Sequence record: OM630585.1 | From: Escherichia phage vB_EcoM_LNA6 | DNA length: 64,000 nt | Strand: one strand, 5' to 3' | In this document: piece by piece, positions 8,730 through 55,946 of the stretch | Numbering within the stretch: position 1 is the first letter of the stretch | Layout of the letters: every line of letters begins with the position of its first letter | Notes under the pieces: generated by a model | What the model was told of the DNA's origin: nothing | What the model saw: the letters and a program-made list of their open reading frames with translations, nothing else | Database searches by the model: none | Translations under genes and position numbers: made by a program

Positions 8730-10082
8730 ATGTGGAATCCAATTGTTAATGTAGATATTACATTGAACACCGCAGGAACTACAAGAGAAGGTTTTGGTTT
8801 GCCACTATTCTTAGCTTCAACAGATAACTTTGAAGAAAGAGTACGTGGTTACACTTCCTTAACTGAAGTTGCTGAAGATTTCGATGAGAATACTGCTGCA
8901 TATAAGGCTGCTAAACAACTTTGGAGTCAGACTCCTAAAGTAACTCAGCTTTATATCGGTAGACGCGCTATGCAGTACACTGTATCAATTCCTGATGCCG
9001 TTACCGAAAGTACAGACTACTCAATTACTGTAGCTGTTGGCGGTGGAATTTCTCAACCATACCAGTACACAGCACAAGACTCAGACACTGCTGAGGTAGT
9101 GTTGCAACAGTTTAAAACACAGATTGAAGCTGACCCAACAATCAAAGATAAGGTTTCTGTGAATGTAACTGGTAGCAATGGCTCTGCCACAATGATTATT
9201 ACCAAAGCTGGTGATAATGACTTTGTGAAAGTAACAACCACAGCACAGACTGTATATATTGCAAGTACAACTGCTGATACAGCAGCAACTGCTCTGGCAG
9301 CTATCGAAGCTTACTCTACTGACTGGTATTTCATTGCAGCAGAAGACAGAACTCAACAGTTTGTCTTAGCAATGGCTTCTGAGATTCAGGCTCGTAAGAA
9401 AATCTTCTTTACGGCTAACTCCGATGTAACAGCCCTACAAGGTACAGAATTAGCCAGTGCAAATGATGTTCCAGCACAGCTTGCTAAGAATATGTACACT
9501 CGTACAGTTTGCTTGTGGCATCACGCAGCAGCAGAAGATTATCCAGAGATGGCATACATTGCTTATGGTGCTCCATATGATGCAGGCTCAATTGCTTGGG
9601 GTAATGCTCAGCTAACTGGCGTAGCAGCTTCTCTACAACCATCTAATCAGAGACCTCTGACAAGTATTCAGAAGTCTGCTTTAGATGTACGTCACTGTAA
9701 CTTTATTGACCTTGATGGTGGTGTTCCAGTGGTTCGTAGAGGGATTACTTCTGGTGGGGAATGGATTGATATCGTCCGTGGTGTTGACTGGTTAGAATCA
9801 GACCTGAAAACTTCTCTGAGAGACTTGCTAATTAACCAGAAGGGTGGTAAGATTACTTATGATGATACTGGTATTACCCGTATTCGTCAAGTCATTGAAA
9901 CCTCTCTGCAAAGAGCAGTCAACAGAAACTTCCTGTCATCTTACACAGTTAATGTTCCTAAAGCCTCTCAAGTTGCTTTAGCAGACAAGAAAGCTCGTAT
10001 CCTGAAAGATGTTACCTTCGCAGGTATCTTAGCAGGGGCTATCTTGGATGTTGACTTGAAAGGTACAGTGGCTTACGAATAA
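8730..10082 (+). CDS. tail sheath protein (putative)
   Basis: 450 aa ORF immediately upstream of a 148 aa tube-sized ORF, chaperone pair and tape measure; positional. Confidence 0.5.
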   Translation: MWNPIVNVDITLNTAGTTREGFGLPLFLASTDNFEERVRGYTSLTEVAEDFDENTAAYKAAKQLWSQTPKVTQLYIGRRAMQYTVSIPDAVTESTDYSITVAVGGGISQPYQYTAQDSDTAEVVLQQFKTQIEADPTIKDKVSVNVTGSNGSATMIITKAGDNDFVKVTTTAQTVYIASTTADTAATALAAIEAYSTDWYFIAAEDRTQQFVLAMASEIQARKKIFFTANSDVTALQGTELASANDVPAQLAKNMYTRTVCLWHHAAAEDYPEMAYIAYGAPYDAGSIAWGNAQLTGVAASLQPSNQRPLTSIQKSALDVRHCNFIDLDGGVPVVRRGITSGGEWIDIVRGVDWLESDLKTSLRDLLINQKGGKITYDDTGITRIRQVIETSLQRAVNRNFLSSYTVNVPKASQVALADKKARILKDVTFAGILAGAILDVDLKGTVAYE

Positions 10083-10097
10083 TAGAGGTAAATTGGA

Positions 10098-10544
10098 ATG
10101 GCTATGTATCAGCAATATTCCCCTAAAGACGTTGTATGTAGCTGGAACGGCATTGCTATTGAAGGCTTTGCTCCAGACTCATTCTTGCGTCTACAGAGAA
10201 CATCACCACTTGTGACACCAGTTGTTGGTGCAGGTGGTCAGGTTGCTCTAACACGAAATGCAGACAAGACAGGTACTATTGAGATTGAGCTAATGCAGAC
10301 TTCTCTCTCTAACCAGATGCTTTCTGCAATTCAAGCTAAACAAGACAATATGGAACTTGAAGAAGATATCTCTTCTAACTTCGTAATCTACGACCCATCA
10401 GGCTCTGTTCTGGCAACTGGTATTAACGCTTGGTTGCAGGAGTTACCACAGATTGAACTTGGTCGTGACCAGAACTCTAAAACTTGGATTTTTGGTTGTG
10501 AGAAGCTAGACTACACTTCTACAATTCCAGCGTCAAGTGTTTAA
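10098..10544 (+). CDS. tail tube protein (putative)
   Basis: 148 aa ORF between sheath candidate and chaperone genes; followed by an intrinsic terminator. Confidence 0.5.
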   Translation: MAMYQQYSPKDVVCSWNGIAIEGFAPDSFLRLQRTSPLVTPVVGAGGQVALTRNADKTGTIEIELMQTSLSNQMLSAIQAKQDNMELEEDISSNFVIYDPSGSVLATGINAWLQELPQIELGRDQNSKTWIFGCEKLDYTSTIPASSV

Positions 10545-10556
10545 TAAATCCTATAA

Positions 10557-10590
10557 GGGGGAGACTTTAAAAGGTCTTCCCCTTTTTTGT
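10557..10590 (+). terminator. rho-independent terminator after tail tube gene
   Basis: GGGGGAGAC-TTTAAAAG-GTCTTCCCC hairpin followed by TTTTTTG. Confidence 0.6.
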
Positions 10591-10617
10591 TTCTTTTAAA
10601 AGTATTAAGGAATCACA

Positions 10618-11016
10618 ATGAAAACAGAATCTAGAGTAATTAATGGCAAGAAAGTAAATATCGTTCTGCTTGGGGCAAGAGATGGTATTAAGATGTCTAT
10701 GAAGTTGGGTAAAATTGTTGTTCCAACTTTTGCACAGATGCTGTCAAGTCTGACTGACAAGGGTAAGAAAGAAGCTCCAATGGTTCCATTTAAAGAACTT
10801 GTTGAAGCTTGTTTTGACAGAATTGAAGAAATTAACCTTGAAGAAATGGCTACCCTGTTATTTCAAGGGGCAACTGTTGATGACTTCCCACTTAATATTG
10901 ATACATACTTCCAAGCAAACTATGGTGAATTTATTGATTACTTAGCATTTGCGCTGGAGGCAAACTTCGGAAGTTTTTTCGAAGCAAGCATTTTCAAAAG
11001 CCTAACTTCTCAGTAA
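10618..11016 (+). CDS. tail assembly chaperone (short form)
   Basis: 132 aa ORF between tube and tape measure genes; contains slippery heptamer near its 3' end. Confidence 0.55.
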   Translation: MKTESRVINGKKVNIVLLGARDGIKMSMKLGKIVVPTFAQMLSSLTDKGKKEAPMVPFKELVEACFDRIEEINLEEMATLLFQGATVDDFPLNIDTYFQANYGEFIDYLAFALEANFGSFFEASIFKSLTSQ

Positions 11017-11257
11017 ACATGGGTAATTCTCTACAGACACCACTGACTGATGCTGCTGTAGAGGCAACCTATGAAGAAGCAGACGAGATGAAATTTGTGC
11101 TTGCTATTTATGGTATGGAAGGGTGTAAAGAAACACTTGACCAACTCTTTGCTATGACATTCTCTGATTTATTATCATTGAGACAATTTCTTGAGATTCA
11201 GAGGTCGTATAAAGAGGAAATTGCTTACAACGAACTTAGAAGAGCAGGAAAAATGTA

Positions 11258-11258
<1 letters not shown>
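10618..11258 (+). CDS. tail assembly chaperone long form (via -1 frameshift, G/GT-like)
   Basis: -1 shift at 10974-10980 joins the 132 aa ORF to the 79 aa ORF 11019..11258 without an intervening stop; conserved position upstream of tape measure. Confidence 0.5.
10974..10980 (+). other. programmed -1 ribosomal frameshift slippery heptamer T_TTT_TTC
   Basis: T TTT TTC in the zero frame of the chaperone ORF (codons TTT 10975-77, TTC 10978-80); the -1 frame from 10980 is open with no stop through ATG 11019 into ORF 11019..11258. Confidence 0.6.
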
Positions 11259-19256
<7,998 letters not shown>

Positions 19257-48199: not shown

Positions 48200-49396
48200 A
48201 TGAACAAAGTACAGATTATTAAAAAGAACGGCTCACTTGAAGAACCTGATATCAAAAAAGTTTTAGCAGCAGTCACAAAGTCAGCTAACAGAGTTGGTTA
48301 TAAAGAGCTTCCACCAGATGTTACTCAAGCTCTTGAGTCAGCATTTATGAGGATTCTGGTAAAATCTACTAAGCAGAATAATTTACTCGTTTCAGTAAAT
48401 GATATTCACAGTATTGTTGAGGGTGCTTTGGCAGAAGTCAATCACGAGATTTATGAGTCTTACTCAACATATAGAAATTACCGTAAAGAGGTTGCTCAAA
48501 ATTGGGATGAACTTTACCAGAAGACCAAAGATACACTCTTCTTAGGTGACCGAGAAAACGCTAATTTTGACAGCAGTTTAATTTCTACAAAAGGTTCAAT
48601 TATTCGTGGTTACCTGACTAAAGAAATCTTTAAACAGTACCACTTAACACCAGAGGAACTTGAAGCCATTGAAAAAGGGTTTATTTATATCCATGACTTA
48701 AGAGACCTAATTTTTGGTGGTATCAACTGTTGTCTGTTTGACATTGGTAAAGTGCTGAAAGGTGGCTTTGAAATGTCTGGCATTGAATATTGTGAACCGA
48801 AGTCTGTACTGTCAGCATTACAGGTTATTGGCGATGTAGTTCTTTCAGCAACTGCACAGCAATTTGGTGGCTTTACTTTAGCAGAGATTGATAAGGTACT
48901 TGTACCGTATGCTAAAAAATCTTTAGTGTACCACTCAGAGAAAGCTGAAGAGTACGGAATCCCTAAAGAGCAACACTATAATTACGTAATGGAGCAATTA
49001 CAGAATGAGTTAACACAAGGTTTCCAATCTCTTGAAATGAAACTTAACACTGTTCCTTGCAGTCGCGGTGATTTTGCATTTACTACTCTGACATTTGGTC
49101 TGTTGGAACCAGATATGCACAATGAAGATAACCGTCTTCAGTTTATGATTGCCAATACAATCCTTAACGTAAGGATGAACGGGCAAGGAAAAAGCAAAAA
49201 ACCTGTTGTGTTCCCTAAACTTGTGTATATCTATGAAGAAACGAGACATAAGCTTGATGTATGCCAAGTAAGGTTGTTTGAAAAAGCTATTGAGTGTTGC
49301 TCTAAAGCTATGTATCCAGATTTCTTAAGTGTATCTGGTCATGGTGCTGTAGCAGAGGCTTTTGAGCGTTCTGGTAAGGTAATTTCCCCGATGGGT
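48200..49396 (+). CDS. nrdD: anaerobic ribonucleoside-triphosphate reductase, exon 1
   Basis: YIHDLRD..GGINCCLFD...EPKSVLSALQVIGDVVLSATAQQFGGFTLAEIDKVL aligns from memory with T4 NrdD; exon ends ..ISPMG with final U at 49396 followed in-frame by TAA. Confidence 0.8.
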
Positions 49397-50138
49397 TAAC
49401 AAGCTCTATAGCTCATCTAAAACGTGCCTAAACAGGGAAACTCTACAGATGTAGACAATCCTGTGCTAAATGATGTACGATGTAAGAAACTATACAACAT
49501 AGGAGTCTTACATGCCAAACTATCACGTCACTGAAGATGGAAAAGTCTTTAGGGAAAATGGTGTAGAGCTTACGCAGTGGAAATCCAACACTGGGTATAT
49601 GAAAGTGAGGTTTTACGGTAAGAAGAATCGTGACATGTATGTCCACAGGTTAGTTGCTGAGAAATATGTACCTAACCCGAACAATCTTCCAATTGTAAAA
49701 CATAAGGACGATAACAAACTAAATAACCACGTATCTAACTTAGAATGGGGTACTCATTCTGAGAATGCTAAAGAAGGTTATGAGAATGGATGCTACAAGT
49801 TCCACAAGCGTTCATATGCCGTGAAAGCCACACACAAAGTGACAAAGGAAGTTATTGTTACTAAGTCAATACGAGAGTTATCCAATATACTTGGATACAA
49901 TCGCAAGACCATCTCTTCAATATTGAAGGGTGTAAAAGAGCATAATAACTTCGAATATGAGTTTGAATACATCTAAATGCCGAACGACTAACCGTGATGA
50001 ATGTAGCGGTGTAGGGTCAAGCGACTCGAAATGGTACGCTACTTAGAAATAAGTAGAAGATATAGTCTGGACTTACTGGCGACAGTAAGCAGCTTGAATA
50101 AAGCGGGGTAAGCTTAGCGAACTTACCTGAACAATAAG
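49397..50138 (+). mobile_element. group I intron in nrdD
   Basis: Interrupts NrdD between ..VISPMG and CRAFLS.. (cf. T4 ..VSPMGCRSFLS); intron ends with G 50138; core GACTCGAAA (P7 5'), CTACTTA-GAAA-TAAGTAG (P8, 7 bp stem, GAAA loop), AGATATAGTC (P7 3') at about 50018-50065. Confidence 0.75.
49512..49976 (+). CDS. HNH homing endonuclease with NUMOD-like HTH, intron-encoded
   Basis: 154 aa; VHRLVAEKY...HKDDNKLNNHVSNLEWGTHSEN HNH motif; C-terminal SIRELSNILGYNRKTISSILKG HTH-like; inside nrdD intron. Confidence 0.7.
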   Translation: MPNYHVTEDGKVFRENGVELTQWKSNTGYMKVRFYGKKNRDMYVHRLVAEKYVPNPNNLPIVKHKDDNKLNNHVSNLEWGTHSENAKEGYENGCYKFHKRSYAVKATHKVTKEVIVTKSIRELSNILGYNRKTISSILKGVKEHNNFEYEFEYI

Positions 50139-54283: not shown

Positions 54284-54605
54284 AGAGAAGTGGGAGATTT
54301 TACCATTAGTCAGTGAAGGTGGTAATGGTTGTGAGATGTACATGATACGTGGTCATGTTCCAGAACCAATTGCACTTGAGATGGTAAACAACTTTACAGA
54401 TGGTTCTTACAAAGACTTAGGCGAACCAACTGTCAAGCAACAATGGGTTAAACCTGTACCAGACAGCACAGGTAACTGTAGTGTACTTTATCACGTTGTA
54501 GACCCTGCAAAATGCAAATCTGCAATGGCAGTAACAAACGTAACTTTGATTGAGAGAGAAAACTATGAAGACATCTATCCGTGTTACAGTTCATTCACCA
54601 ACTAA
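54276..54605 (+). CDS. hypothetical protein
   Basis: 109 aa ORF. Confidence 0.35.
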   Translation: MAKEKWEILPLVSEGGNGCEMYMIRGHVPEPIALEMVNNFTDGSYKDLGEPTVKQQWVKPVPDSTGNCSVLYHVVDPAKCKSAMAVTNVTLIERENYEDIYPCYSSFTN

Positions 54606-55446
54606 AGGAACTCATGAAGAGGAGTTTAACATCATCCAATTTCCTTCTGGTGAGATTGGTGGACACTTTTCGCCAGAGTTTGTTGATTTCACTGCTTATG
54701 CAGCATCATCCATCAACAATGTGATTATGATTGTAAAAGGTTATGATAAGGATACATTGTTTGCTGTTGCACTTGCTAAAGAAGCAATTGATGATTTAGT
54801 CCCTCATGACTATGCCTTAAAGACTGTCATCTTTTACTACTTACCAAATGCACGTTATGACCGTCACATGTTTAAAGGTGACGCAGCAGCTTTAAAGGTT
54901 TTTGCTAAACAGGTAAATGCAATGGGATTTGGTGCAGTCTGTGCAGTTGACCCTCACAGTTACGTTCCAGATAACCTGTTTAACTGCTTCCAGAGTATTC
55001 CTCAAAAGGAGATTGCAGTTCACTACGCAAATGACCCACTGATTGATTACTTAGTAGCCCCAGATGCAGGTGCTTCTAAGAAGATTGCAGAGACTGCTAA
55101 AGAGGTGGATAAACCATACATCACAATGTCTAAAGTACGCAACCTCAAGACTGGTGAAATTACTGGTATGCGAATCCTTGACGATGTTGATTTGACAGAT
55201 AAAACCGTCATGATTCTTGATGATATCTGTGATGGTGGTCGAACCTTCGTAGAGGCAGCTAAACACCTACGTGAAGCAGGTGCAAAACGTGTTGAGCTTT
55301 ATGTAACACATGGTATCTTCTCTAAAGGTGTTGAAAACCTTCTTGACAACGGTATCGACCATATTTACACTACAAACTCTTTAGGCGAAGCTAAAGACCG
55401 TGGCTTAACACATTATAGTCAAGTTACTGTAGCAAATTTGGATTAG
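54565..55446 (+). CDS. ribose-phosphate pyrophosphokinase (PRPP synthetase)-like protein; candidate ADPR-pyrophosphate synthetase
   Basis: VMILDDICDGGRTF (PRPP-binding loop, cf. VLVDDMIDTGGTL), GAKRV and THGIFS align from memory with E. coli Prs C-terminal half; start at ATG 54565. Confidence 0.7.
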   Translation: MKTSIRVTVHSPTKGTHEEEFNIIQFPSGEIGGHFSPEFVDFTAYAASSINNVIMIVKGYDKDTLFAVALAKEAIDDLVPHDYALKTVIFYYLPNARYDRHMFKGDAAALKVFAKQVNAMGFGAVCAVDPHSYVPDNLFNCFQSIPQKEIAVHYANDPLIDYLVAPDAGASKKIAETAKEVDKPYITMSKVRNLKTGEITGMRILDDVDLTDKTVMILDDICDGGRTFVEAAKHLREAGAKRVELYVTHGIFSKGVENLLDNGIDHIYTTNSLGEAKDRGLTHYSQVTVANLD

Positions 55447-55454
55447 GTATTAAA

Positions 55455-55946
55455 ATGGATAAGGGTTACTTCGAAAAATACCTAATATACGAACCGGAGA
55501 CAGGTTTACTAATTTGGAAAGTAACCCTTTGCAATACCGCTATTGCTGGTAATGTTGCTGGCACAAGGTCTAAGAAGGGTTATATCCAAGTCCAGATAAA
55601 TAAGAAGAGGTACTATGCACATAATATTGCATGGATTATGTCTGGAGGTGAGATACCAAGTGGATATGAGATAGACCACATAGACCTTGATAAATCTAAT
55701 AATAAGTTGGAGAATTTAAGACTTAGCACAAAGTCACAAAATCAGAGGAATAGGGGTATATACAAGAATAATAAAACTGGTGTGAAGGGTGTAAGTTTTT
55801 GTAAACAAACAGGTCTTTACAAAGCAAGAGTCATGCTTTACCATAAAGAATACTTTTGTGGAAGATTTAAAACGGTAGAAGAAGCAAAAGAAGCTGTAAT
55901 TAAAAAGCGAATAGAACTTCATGGTGAGTTTGCAAGACATAACTAA
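55455..55946 (+). CDS. HNH homing endonuclease with AP2-like domain (free-standing)
   Basis: YEIDHIDLDKSNNKLENLRLSTKSQNQRN HNH-type motif followed by TGVKGVSFCKQTGLYKARV AP2-like segment; paralogue of 41413..41913. Confidence 0.65.
   Translation: MDKGYFEKYLIYEPETGLLIWKVTLCNTAIAGNVAGTRSKKGYIQVQINKKRYYAHNIAWIMSGGEIPSGYEIDHIDLDKSNNKLENLRLSTKSQNQRNRGIYKNNKTGVKGVSFCKQTGLYKARVMLYHKEYFCGRFKTVEEAKEAVIKKRIELHGEFARHN

What the first reader, a model, noticed from the sequence alone, without database searches (positions are those of the whole stretch)
10974..11019. Programmed -1 frameshift joining the two tail assembly chaperone ORFs
The chaperone ORF contains the canonical slippery heptamer U UUU UUC (10974-10980) 36 nt before its stop. 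The -1 frame from that point is open and runs directly into ATG 11019 of the downstream 79 aa ORF, so slippage would yield a roughly 210 aa fusion. This mirrors the conserved G/GT-type frameshift upstream of tape measure genes.
Basis: seen in the sequence. Interest (0 to 1): 0.5.

Follow-up and report, generated by a model that had tools for sequence, protein, structure and literature searches.

The report
Known tail-chaperone -1 frameshift site
The two small genes in front of the tail tape-measure gene of this Felix O1-like phage are very probably joined by a programmed -1 ribosomal slip at T_TTT_TTC, but this is the ordinary, already annotated G/GT-type arrangement of tailed phages.

Summary
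T_TTT_TTC (10974-10980) lies in phase in the 132-aa tail assembly chaperone ORF (10618-11016). The -1 frame is open from 10938 to 11258, and a slip would give a 213-aa fusion.

Of 67 distinct homologous chaperone genes (identity 100% down to about 24%):
- 63 keep an in-phase TTTTTT[C/T] at the same codons, followed by 50-110 open codons in the -1 frame.
- 3 carry another classical heptamer a few codons downstream.
- 1, a Buttiauxella prophage, has no slippery site. It encodes the long form as a separate gene that aligns colinearly with the predicted fusion across the junction.

Several relatives have no start codon for the downstream ORF.

The window is a Felixounavirus. The same join is already annotated in Salmonella phage Mushroom (same genus, 97% identical here) and in Citrobacter phages Moogle and Michonne. 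A 2025 paper reports the conserved motif across Andersonviridae. Most Felixounavirus records, Felix O1 included, still list two separate CDS.

I found no downstream stimulatory RNA structure. A Shine-Dalgarno-like GGAGG sits 13 nt upstream and is kept by codon choice in 22 of 26 lineages, so it is a plausible dnaX-type stimulator.

Verdict: real, ordinary, already known. No experimental proof was found.

The parts
10098..10544 (+). Tail tube gene (148 aa). It is the presumed partner of the C-terminal ('T'-like) part of the fusion.
   Evidence: ORF; PF11681, E 3e-7. Position directly after the sheath gene 8730-10082.
10618..11016 (+). Short-form tail assembly chaperone (gpG-like, 132 aa), frame 0.
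   Evidence: PF21822 Phage_TAC_15, E 1.7e-19; phrog_1613 and phrog_3840, both 'tail assembly chaperone'.
10956..10960 (+). Shine-Dalgarno-like GGAGG, 13 nt upstream of the heptamer. Candidate dnaX-type upstream stimulator (inferred, not shown).
   Evidence: sequence; the only GAG codon in ORF1, against 10 GAA; only 13 internal GGAGG in 56 kb of coding sequence; an SD-like 4-mer in 22 of 26 lineages, against 7.1 expected from amino acids plus codon usage; anti-SD duplex of -9.3 kcal/mol; the review gives 9-14 nt spacing for -1 frameshifting.
10974..10980 (+). Slippery heptamer T_TTT_TTC, in phase (Ser-AGT | Phe-TTT | Phe-TTC).
   Evidence: Conserved in 63 of 67 distinct homologues as TTTTTT[C/T]. 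Michonne's GenBank 'ribosomal slippage' position falls inside the homologous heptamer.
10938..11016 (+). Overlap zone where both frame 0 and frame -1 are open. The shift must occur here.
   Evidence: stop map. Peak of synonymous-codon conservation at residues 117-123. Erwinia phages match the query at the DNA level only at 10963-11003.
10980..11258 (+). -1 frame extension (92 codons plus stop) that forms the C-terminal 'T'-like part of the fusion. It includes the annotated 79-aa ORF 11019-11258.
   Evidence: phrog_4963, E 8e-55; the linker R-x-K-x-F-x-K-P-x-F upstream of the ATG is conserved; colinear with a single-ORF long form in L038.
10618..11258 (+). Joined coding region of the 213-aa long-form chaperone (join 10618..10980, 10980..11258).
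   Evidence: An identical 641-nt join is annotated as CDS AJF40599.1 in Salmonella phage Mushroom.
11258..13465 (+). Tape measure protein gene (735 aa), the client of the chaperones.
   Evidence: (PF20155 TMP_3, E 2e-17).

Best explanation
This is the gpG/gpGT-type expression signal of a Felix O1-like myophage.

Most ribosomes translate ORF1 to its stop and make the 132-aa short chaperone. A minority slip back one nucleotide while tRNA-Phe occupies the P site (UUU) and the A site (UUC) on U_UUU_UUC. Both tRNAs re-pair with UUU in the -1 frame. Translation then continues through 13 linker codons and the 79 codons annotated as ORF2, giving a 213-aa long chaperone.

By analogy with lambda G/GT, the shared N-terminal domain would coat the tape measure protein. 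The rare C-terminal extension would recruit the tube protein. Neither product would end up in the virion.

The slip probably relies on the intrinsic shiftiness of the heptamer, possibly helped by pairing of the upstream GGAGG (13 nt 5') with the anti-SD of the translating ribosome. No downstream RNA structure appears to be involved.

Shown here: sequence anatomy, homology and conservation. Inferred: the slip itself, its efficiency, the role of the GGAGG and the division of labour between the two domains.
For: Anatomy:
- The heptamer is in phase, the -1 frame is open across it and the +1 frame is closed.
- The genes lie between the tube and tape measure genes.
- ORF1 is PF21822 Phage_TAC_15.
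- The fusion scores better than ORF1 alone against phrog_3840 (162.5 vs 147 bits, match extended to residue 151).

Conservation (67 distinct homologues):
- 51 have TTTTTTC and 12 have TTTTTTT at the same codons.
- 3 have GGGAAAG, GGGAAAA or GGGTTTG slightly downstream.
- All 66 have at least 50 open -1 codons.
- The base before TTT TTY is T whatever the amino acid (AGT, TCT, GAT, GGT).

No independent start:
- L007 has ATA in place of the ATG.
- Kolesnikvirus-like loci L032-L034 have no ATG/GTG/TTG until codon 38-58 of the -1 part.
- Gene callers call nothing in that interval in L039-L041 (L039/L040; L041).
- phiEa104 annotators could call only a 37-aa stub.
- In L041 a -1-frame stop ends immediately before the heptamer, which pins the shift to it or after it.

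Natural control: prophage L038 encodes FF as TTC TTC after TCA, which is not slippery. It has a separate 201-aa gene that aligns with the predicted fusion straight through the junction (E 8e-13).

Nucleotide-level constraint:
- Synonymous codon identity is 0.71-0.82 around residues 117-123, against mostly 0.36-0.62 elsewhere.
- Erwinia phages match only 10963-11003.

Motif competence: Sharma et al. 2014 place H_HH.U_UU.Y among the most efficient motifs in E. coli, and list U_UU.U_UU.C as above 0.1% without stimulators and as used by IS elements (PMC4066793).

Prior annotation of the same join. Papers: PMC4319497, PMC4591319, PMC12846349.
Against: - No protein-level evidence was found for any member of this chaperone family.
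- All 92 database homologues of the fusion are short forms.
- No significant downstream structure: z = -0.73 and -0.05, and z = +1.2 for the 60 nt after the heptamer.
- In this window an ATG (11019) lies 2 nt after the ORF1 stop, so some free 79-aa product made by reinitiation cannot be excluded.
- The T6 run would also allow low-level RNA polymerase slippage.
- Conservation of the site is partly forced by two overlapping conserved peptides.
Confidence: 0.88

Rival explanations
1. The fusion is real but arises from transcriptional slippage. RNA polymerase would insert one extra U on the T6 template run, perhaps helped by the small hairpin just upstream (10954-10970). Standard translation of that mRNA subpopulation would give the same 213-aa protein.
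For: - The homopolymeric T6 run (T7 in 12 lineages) is preceded by a terminator-like weak hairpin, flagged and folding at -6.3 kcal/mol.
- Stem-loop-stimulated transcriptional slippage is a known mechanism (PMC5009743).
- UUUUUUU is noted as prone to transcriptional slippage (PMC4066793).
Against: - Efficient bacterial RNAP slippage is described for runs of about 9 A or T (PMC5009743). T6 is short.
- Three lineages replaced the T run with GGGAAAG, GGGAAAA or GGGTTTG. These are classical ribosomal heptamers and poor polymerase-slippage substrates.
- The upstream hairpin is absent or negligible in several lineages that keep the heptamer: 0 to -0.4 kcal/mol in L043 and L033.
- The same nucleotides are better explained as an SD-like element, with an anti-SD duplex of -9 kcal/mol.
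Confidence: 0.06
2. There is no functional fusion. The 79-aa ORF would be translated on its own from ATG 11019 by termination-reinitiation after the ORF1 stop 2 nt upstream, and the heptamer would be a by-product of a conserved Ser-Phe-Phe motif.
For: - An ATG is present at 11019 in this window and in almost all Felixounavirus relatives.
- The stop and start are 2 nt apart.
- Most GenBank records annotate two CDS.
Against: - There is no SD in the 20 nt before the ATG.
- The ATG is lost in L007, displaced in Mooglevirus-like loci and absent in Kolesnikvirus-like loci and in L039 and L041, while the upstream -1 linker peptide (RSKHFQKP.F) stays conserved.
- Codon choice for S/D/G-F-F is T TTT TTY in 63 of 67 homologues. 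The expectation from this window's codon usage is 0.32.
- The one lineage with non-slippery codons has a separate long-form gene.
Confidence: 0.04
3. The coincidence is due to chance, or to a sequencing or assembly indel that splits one gene in two.
For: A single genome gives only about 0.07 expected in-phase heptamers in the overlap, which is not vanishingly rare.
Against: The same two-frame arrangement is found in 296-298 phage records and in dozens of independent metagenome contigs. An assembly error would not recur in all of them.
Confidence: 0.01

Closest known systems
Phage lambda G / G-T tail assembly chaperones (Levin, Hendrix and Casjens 1993; Xu, Hendrix and Duda 2004, 2013, 2014, as summarised in PMC5009743)
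   Same: - Two overlapping ORFs lie between the major tail/tube gene and the tape measure gene.
- The slippery heptamer sits near the end of the first ORF.
- A -1 shift gives a minor long form sharing the N-terminal chaperone domain.
- No obvious strong stimulatory structure is present.
   Different: - The heptamer is U_UUU_UUC rather than G_GGA_AAG.
- The host virus is a contractile-tailed myophage.
- There is no detectable sequence similarity to gpG; this is a different Pfam family, PF21822.
- There is a possible SD-like upstream element.
- Nothing has been tested biochemically here.
Annotated frameshifted 'tape measure chaperone' of Salmonella phage Mushroom (KP143762, AJF40599.1) and of Citrobacter phages Moogle and Michonne (KM236239, KT001916)
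   Same: - These are orthologous genes.
- Mushroom is 97.3% identical over the 641 nt, has the same heptamer and gives the same 213-aa product.
- Michonne's record notes 'ribosomal slippage' inside the homologous TTTTTTC.
   Different: Only strain-level sequence differences. Those annotations are also predictions, not experiments.
Conserved GTTTTT motif in TAC-N genes of Vandenendeviridae and Andersonviridae (Pseudomonas phage Adele paper, PMC12846349, 2025)
   Same: - The paper makes the same inference from an uninterrupted -1 frame and a conserved poly-T motif at the 3' end of the short chaperone gene.
- Andersonviridae contains Ounavirinae, and hence this phage.
   Different: In the passages I read (term search), the paper does not mention the upstream SD-like element, the lineages with alternative heptamers, or the prophage with separately encoded short and long forms.
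E. coli dnaX -1 frameshift cassette
   Same: An SD-like sequence lies within the 9-14 nt window upstream of a homopolymeric heptamer.
   Different: dnaX also needs a strong downstream stem-loop and reaches about 50% efficiency. No such structure is present here, and low efficiency is expected.
T4-like phages that encode short and long chaperone forms as separate genes (Vladimirov, Gautam and Davidson 2022, as described in PMC10885494)
   Same: The Buttiauxella prophage relative (L038) uses this solution: a 126-aa gene plus a 201-aa gene.
   Different: The window itself uses the overlapping two-frame arrangement, not gene duplication.

Membership tests
G/GT-type frameshifted tail assembly chaperone (Xu, Hendrix and Duda 2004) | Two overlapping ORFs located between the major tail (tube) gene and the tape measure gene. 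| tested here: met
   tube 10098-10544, ORF1 10618-11016, ORF2 11019-11258, tape measure 11258-13465. Pfam assignments.
G/GT-type frameshifted tail assembly chaperone (Xu, Hendrix and Duda 2004) | The downstream ORF is in the -1 (or +1) frame, and the alternative frame is open across the end of the upstream ORF. | tested here: met
   the -1 frame is open from 10938 to 11258, giving a 79-nt overlap with ORF1.
G/GT-type frameshifted tail assembly chaperone (Xu, Hendrix and Duda 2004) | A slippery sequence lies in the correct phase within the overlap. | tested here: met
   T_TTT_TTC at 10974-10980. Competence of the motif in E. coli: PMC4066793.
G/GT-type frameshifted tail assembly chaperone (Xu, Hendrix and Duda 2004) | The downstream ORF lacks its own translation initiation signals. 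| tested here: inconclusive
   In this window an ATG exists at 11019 but without an SD. The ATG is absent in L007, L032-L034, L039 and L041. The feature is therefore met in relatives but not strictly met here.
G/GT-type frameshifted tail assembly chaperone (Xu, Hendrix and Duda 2004) | The arrangement and slip site are conserved among relatives despite sequence divergence. | tested here: met
   66 of 67 distinct homologues. Synonymous-site conservation peak. DNA-level island.
G/GT-type frameshifted tail assembly chaperone (Xu, Hendrix and Duda 2004) | The fusion protein is actually produced at a low fixed ratio and is required for tail assembly. | not testable with these tools
   No experimental report was found in five literature searches.
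G/GT-type frameshifted tail assembly chaperone (Xu, Hendrix and Duda 2004) | The short domain binds the tape measure protein, and the extension binds the major tail/tube protein. | not testable with these tools
   Inferred from the lambda work summarised in PMC5009743. No solved structure of a homologue was found.
Pfam PF21822 Phage_TAC_15 | Score above the curated gathering threshold. | tested here: met
   71 bits against a cut-off of 22, E 1.7e-19, covering residues 9-124.
dnaX-type frameshift cassette (upstream SD plus heptamer plus downstream stem-loop) | SD-like sequence 9-14 nt upstream of the heptamer. | tested here: met
   GGAGG at 10956-10960, 13 nt upstream. Kept by codon choice in 22 of 26 lineages against 7.1 expected. 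Function not tested.
dnaX-type frameshift cassette (upstream SD plus heptamer plus downstream stem-loop) | Stable stem-loop 5-9 nt downstream of the heptamer. | tested here: not met
   no structure better than shuffled controls in the window, and no conserved hairpin across lineages.

The most novel reading that the evidence does not exclude
Across the whole PF21822 chaperone family, the frameshift may be boosted by an internal Shine-Dalgarno-like element rather than by a downstream RNA structure. The element is GGAGG or AAGGAG, 11-13 nt upstream of the U-rich heptamer. It is maintained by synonymous codon choice under two different amino-acid contexts (L-E-A and L-K-E). This would be a dnaX/IS-type upstream stimulator used on its own in a phage G/GT-like signal. 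It is dispensable in some lineages (Kolesnikvirus, L039), which lack it.
Probability: 0.4. Interest if true: 0.3.

Novelty: already known. Interest (0 to 1): 0.15.

Why it matters
The main value is for annotation. Most Felixounavirus records, including the Felix O1 type genome, list the 79-aa ORF as an independent gene and omit the 213-aa long chaperone. The comparative evidence says the long form is the conserved product, so those records should carry a ribosomal-slippage join as Mushroom, Moogle and Michonne do.

Biologically it adds one more well-conserved example of the G/GT strategy in contractile-tailed phages. It also comes with a neat natural control: a prophage that lost the slippery site and encodes both forms separately. 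There is in addition a testable hint of an SD-like stimulator. It changes no concept in the field.

Tried and rejected
- **Downstream stimulatory structure.** Folding 10981-11070 and 10950-11040 gave z = -0.73 and -0.05. Folding the 60 nt after the heptamer in 24 lineages showed no consistent hairpin, and the window itself gave z = +1.2. The only good hairpin in the window (about 11028-11064) starts some 48 nt downstream, too far for a canonical stimulator. Rejected.
- **Deposited fusion proteins.** A search of the 5.8-billion-protein collection with the 213-aa fusion returned only short forms. It gave no support and no contradiction, because gene callers do not call frameshifts.
- **Solved structures.** A profile of the chaperone family found no PDB relative at E <= 1.
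- **Genome-contig scan.** It returned only one distant locus, L074. The informative prophage came instead from the look-up of encoding contigs.
- **Vladimirov et al. 2022.** I tried to read the paper on the T4-like alternative mechanism, but it is not held. I relied on how PMC10885494 describes it.
- **In-phase AAATTTG at 55434.** It has a long -1 continuation, but this is simply the next gene starting at 55455 after the stop. Not a candidate.
- **Structure prediction.** Not run. It would not have changed the verdict.

Full report
**What is in the sequence**

The region lies in the tail module of a contractile-tailed phage (Pfam):
- sheath, 8730-10082, DUF3383
- tube, 10098-10544, PF11681
- a 132-aa ORF, 10618-11016
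- a 79-aa ORF, 11019-11258
- a 735-aa tape measure protein, 11258-13465, PF20155

ORF1 is a tail assembly chaperone. It matches PF21822 Phage_TAC_15 at 71 bits against a cut-off of 22, and phrog_1613 and phrog_3840. ORF2 matches phrog_4963, also labelled tail assembly chaperone.

TTTTTTC occupies 10974-10980 and is read AGT|TTT|TTC in ORF1, so it is in the X_XXY_YYZ phase. It is the only in-phase heptamer of that type in ORF1. ORF2 is in the -1 frame. That frame is open from 10938 to 11258, and the +1 frame is closed. A -1 slip gives a 213-aa protein: 121 residues, then the linker RSKHFQKPNFSVN, then the 79 residues of ORF2. The gap to the stop is 33 nt, or 36 with the stop included.

**Is it more than chance?**

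In one genome the case is only moderate. In-phase heptamers with Y = A/T occur at 50 of 19,416 codon positions in the window's long ORFs, so 0.067 are expected in the 26-codon overlap. This is, however, the only in-phase TTTTTTC and one of only two with a long -1 continuation. The other, at 55434, is simply the next gene.

**Origin of the window**

The window is a Felixounavirus. It is 98% identical to Escherichia phage momo and to about 220 other records over 3.5 kb.

**Comparative evidence**

I collected homologous loci from four sources:
- IMG/VR, with the protein as query
- IMG/VR, with a family alignment as query
- assemblies holding distant homologues
- GenBank phage records

Among 67 distinct chaperone sequences, from 100% down to about 24% identity:
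- 51 have TTTTTTC and 12 have TTTTTTT at exactly the homologous codons. Each is followed by 50-112 open codons in the -1 frame.
- 3 (L054, L058, L073) lack the T run but have GGGAAAG, GGGAAAA or GGGTTTG in phase a few codons downstream, with 94-98 open -1 codons.
- The base preceding TTT TTY is T whatever the residue (AGT, TCT, GAT, GGT).
- The +1 frame is closed everywhere.

**The downstream ORF has no conserved start**
- One close relative (L007) has ATA in place of ATG.
- Mooglevirus-like loci have the first ATG five or six codons further on.
- Kolesnikvirus-like loci (L032-L034) and the unclassified L039 and L041 have no ATG, GTG or TTG for the first 37-57 codons of the -1 part, although those codons are conserved as protein.
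- Gene callers therefore leave a hole there.
- The phiEa104 RefSeq record carries only a 37-aa stub.
- In L041 a -1-frame TAG ends immediately before the heptamer, so the shift cannot occur upstream of it.

**A natural control**

A prophage in Buttiauxella noackiae (L038) has the same chaperone family and the same Ser-Phe-Phe motif, but encoded TCA TTC TTC, which is not slippery. Its next gene is an ordinary 201-aa ORF with a weak PF21822 match. That protein aligns with the predicted fusion from residue 81 to 208, straight through the junction (NFGSF--FRSKHFQKPNF against NFGVFLSFVVKPFVKPDF), at E 8e-13.

So where the slip site is absent, the long form is hard-wired as a separate gene. Some T4-like phages use the same solution (PMC10885494 describing Vladimirov et al. 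2022). This shows that the -1 frame peptide right after the heptamer is part of a real protein.

**Nucleotide-level constraint**

Synonymous codon identity among 15 diverse representatives is mostly 0.36-0.62 along ORF1. It rises to 0.71-0.82 for windows centred on residues 117-123, around the heptamer. In a sensitive blastn of the 641-nt locus, the Erwinia Kolesnikvirus phages (about 40% protein identity) match only query positions 346-386. That is window 10963-11003, the heptamer and its immediate flanks. Part of this is explained by two conserved overlapping peptides: EASIFK in frame 0 and RSKHFQKP in frame -1.

**How it probably works**

A single tRNA-Phe reads both UUU and UUC. After a -1 shift both the P-site and A-site tRNAs face UUU, so re-pairing is cognate. 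Sharma et al. 2014 place H_HH.U_UU.Y among the most efficient heptamer classes in E. coli. They list U_UU.U_UU.C among motifs with more than 0.1% frameshifting without any stimulator, and note its use by IS elements (PMC4066793).

I found no downstream stimulatory structure:
- z = -0.73 and -0.05 for two windows.
- z = +1.2 for the 60 nt after the heptamer.
- No hairpin shared by the 24 lineages examined.

Upstream there is a GGAGG at 10956-10960, 13 nt before the heptamer. That is inside the 9-14 nt range reported for SD-like stimulators of -1 frameshifting (PMC5009743).
- It contains the only GAG among 11 Glu codons of ORF1.
- Internal GGAGG is rare in the window, 13 in 56 kb of coding sequence.
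- Across 26 lineages with the T-rich heptamer, 22 carry GGAG or GAGG at this place, as xxG GAG GCx (L-E-A) or AAG GAG (K-E).
- 7.1 would be expected from their amino acids and local codon usage.
- Predicted anti-SD duplexes are about -9 kcal/mol.
- Kolesnikvirus-like loci and L039 lack it, so it is not essential.

The lineages are related, so the statistics overstate independence. I regard the stimulator as plausible, not shown. The same bases can also form a weak hairpin just before the T run (-6.3 kcal/mol). That keeps a small probability for polymerase slippage. Against it, the run is short (T6), three lineages use heteropolymeric ribosomal heptamers, and the hairpin is negligible in some lineages that keep the heptamer.

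**Function**

By analogy with lambda (PMC5009743), the abundant short form and the N-terminal part of the long form would coat the tape measure protein. The rare C-terminal extension would recruit the tube protein. Neither would be in the virion. This is inference; no homologue has a solved structure.

**Is it new? No.**
- The GenBank record of Salmonella phage Mushroom (Felixounavirus mushroom, KP143762) carries a two-piece CDS, 48888..49528 (AJF40599.1, 'tape measure chaperone'). It is 641 nt long, 97.3% identical to window 10618-11258, has the same heptamer at the same offset and gives the same 213-aa product.
- Citrobacter phages Moogle and Michonne (Mooglevirus) have the same join. Michonne's note 'ribosomal slippage (47149)' falls inside the homologous TTTTTTC.
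- Their genome announcements state it (PMC4319497, PMC4591319).
[quoted passage not shown] Andersonviridae includes Ounavirinae.

What remains true is that most Felixounavirus records list two independent CDS without a join. I checked Felix O1 itself, momo, LinBro, VpaE1_ev78, BPS15Q2 and JLBYU32. No fusion protein turned up among the 92 database homologues. I found no experimental demonstration for this family in five literature searches.

**Verdict**

It is ordinary and already annotated or published for orthologues, so interest is low. The only mildly new points are the family-wide SD-like element upstream of the heptamer, the absence of a downstream structure, and the prophage that encodes the two forms separately.

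Noticed in passing
window 10555-10594 (+): A strong intrinsic-terminator-like hairpin (13-bp stem, 6 G-C pairs, loop of 4) followed by TTTTTGTTT lies between the tube gene and the chaperone gene. The Michonne GenBank record annotates a terminator at the equivalent place. It may lower transcription of the chaperone and tape-measure genes relative to the sheath and tube genes.
   Followed up: partly
L038:3001-3986 (Buttiauxella noackiae JPRU01000001.1, prophage region): This relative of the chaperone family has no slippery site (TCA TTC TTC). It has a separate 201-aa long-form gene directly downstream, colinear with the predicted fusion. It is an example of the 'two genes instead of a frameshift' solution inside a family that otherwise frameshifts.
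   Followed up: partly
L054, L058, L073 (IMG/VR contigs): Three distant family members have lost the T-rich heptamer. They carry GGGAAAG, GGGAAAA or GGGTTTG in phase 3-5 codons further downstream, each with 94-98 open -1 codons. The slip site seems to have moved and changed type during evolution.
   Followed up: partly
window 10964-10986 (+): The slippery run itself sits in the loop and 3' arm of a small local hairpin (CUUCGGAA GUUU UUUCGAAG, about -7.5 kcal/mol). The ribosome would have melted it by the time it reaches the heptamer. Its significance is unknown.
   Followed up: no
window 11028-11064 (+): An imperfect hairpin (UCUCUACAG...CUGUAGAG) lies inside ORF2, about 48 nt downstream of the heptamer. 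That is too far for a canonical frameshift stimulator. I did not examine it in relatives.
   Followed up: no
L003 (LR597663.1, Escherichia phage VpaE1_ev78): The deposited annotation appears shifted by several genes. The sheath is labelled 'Ad1 adapter', the chaperone 'Hc1 head closure protein', the 79-aa ORF 'Tc1 tail completion protein', and the tape measure protein 'Tail sheath protein'. These misleading names have propagated into protein databases, for example 'head closure protein' for P0025 and P0036.
   Followed up: no
window 55434-55446 (+): An in-phase AAATTTG lies 3 nt before the stop of ORF 54550-55446, with 168 open -1 codons. The -1 frame is simply that of the next gene, which has its own ATG at 55455. 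This is not a frameshift candidate.
   Followed up: yes
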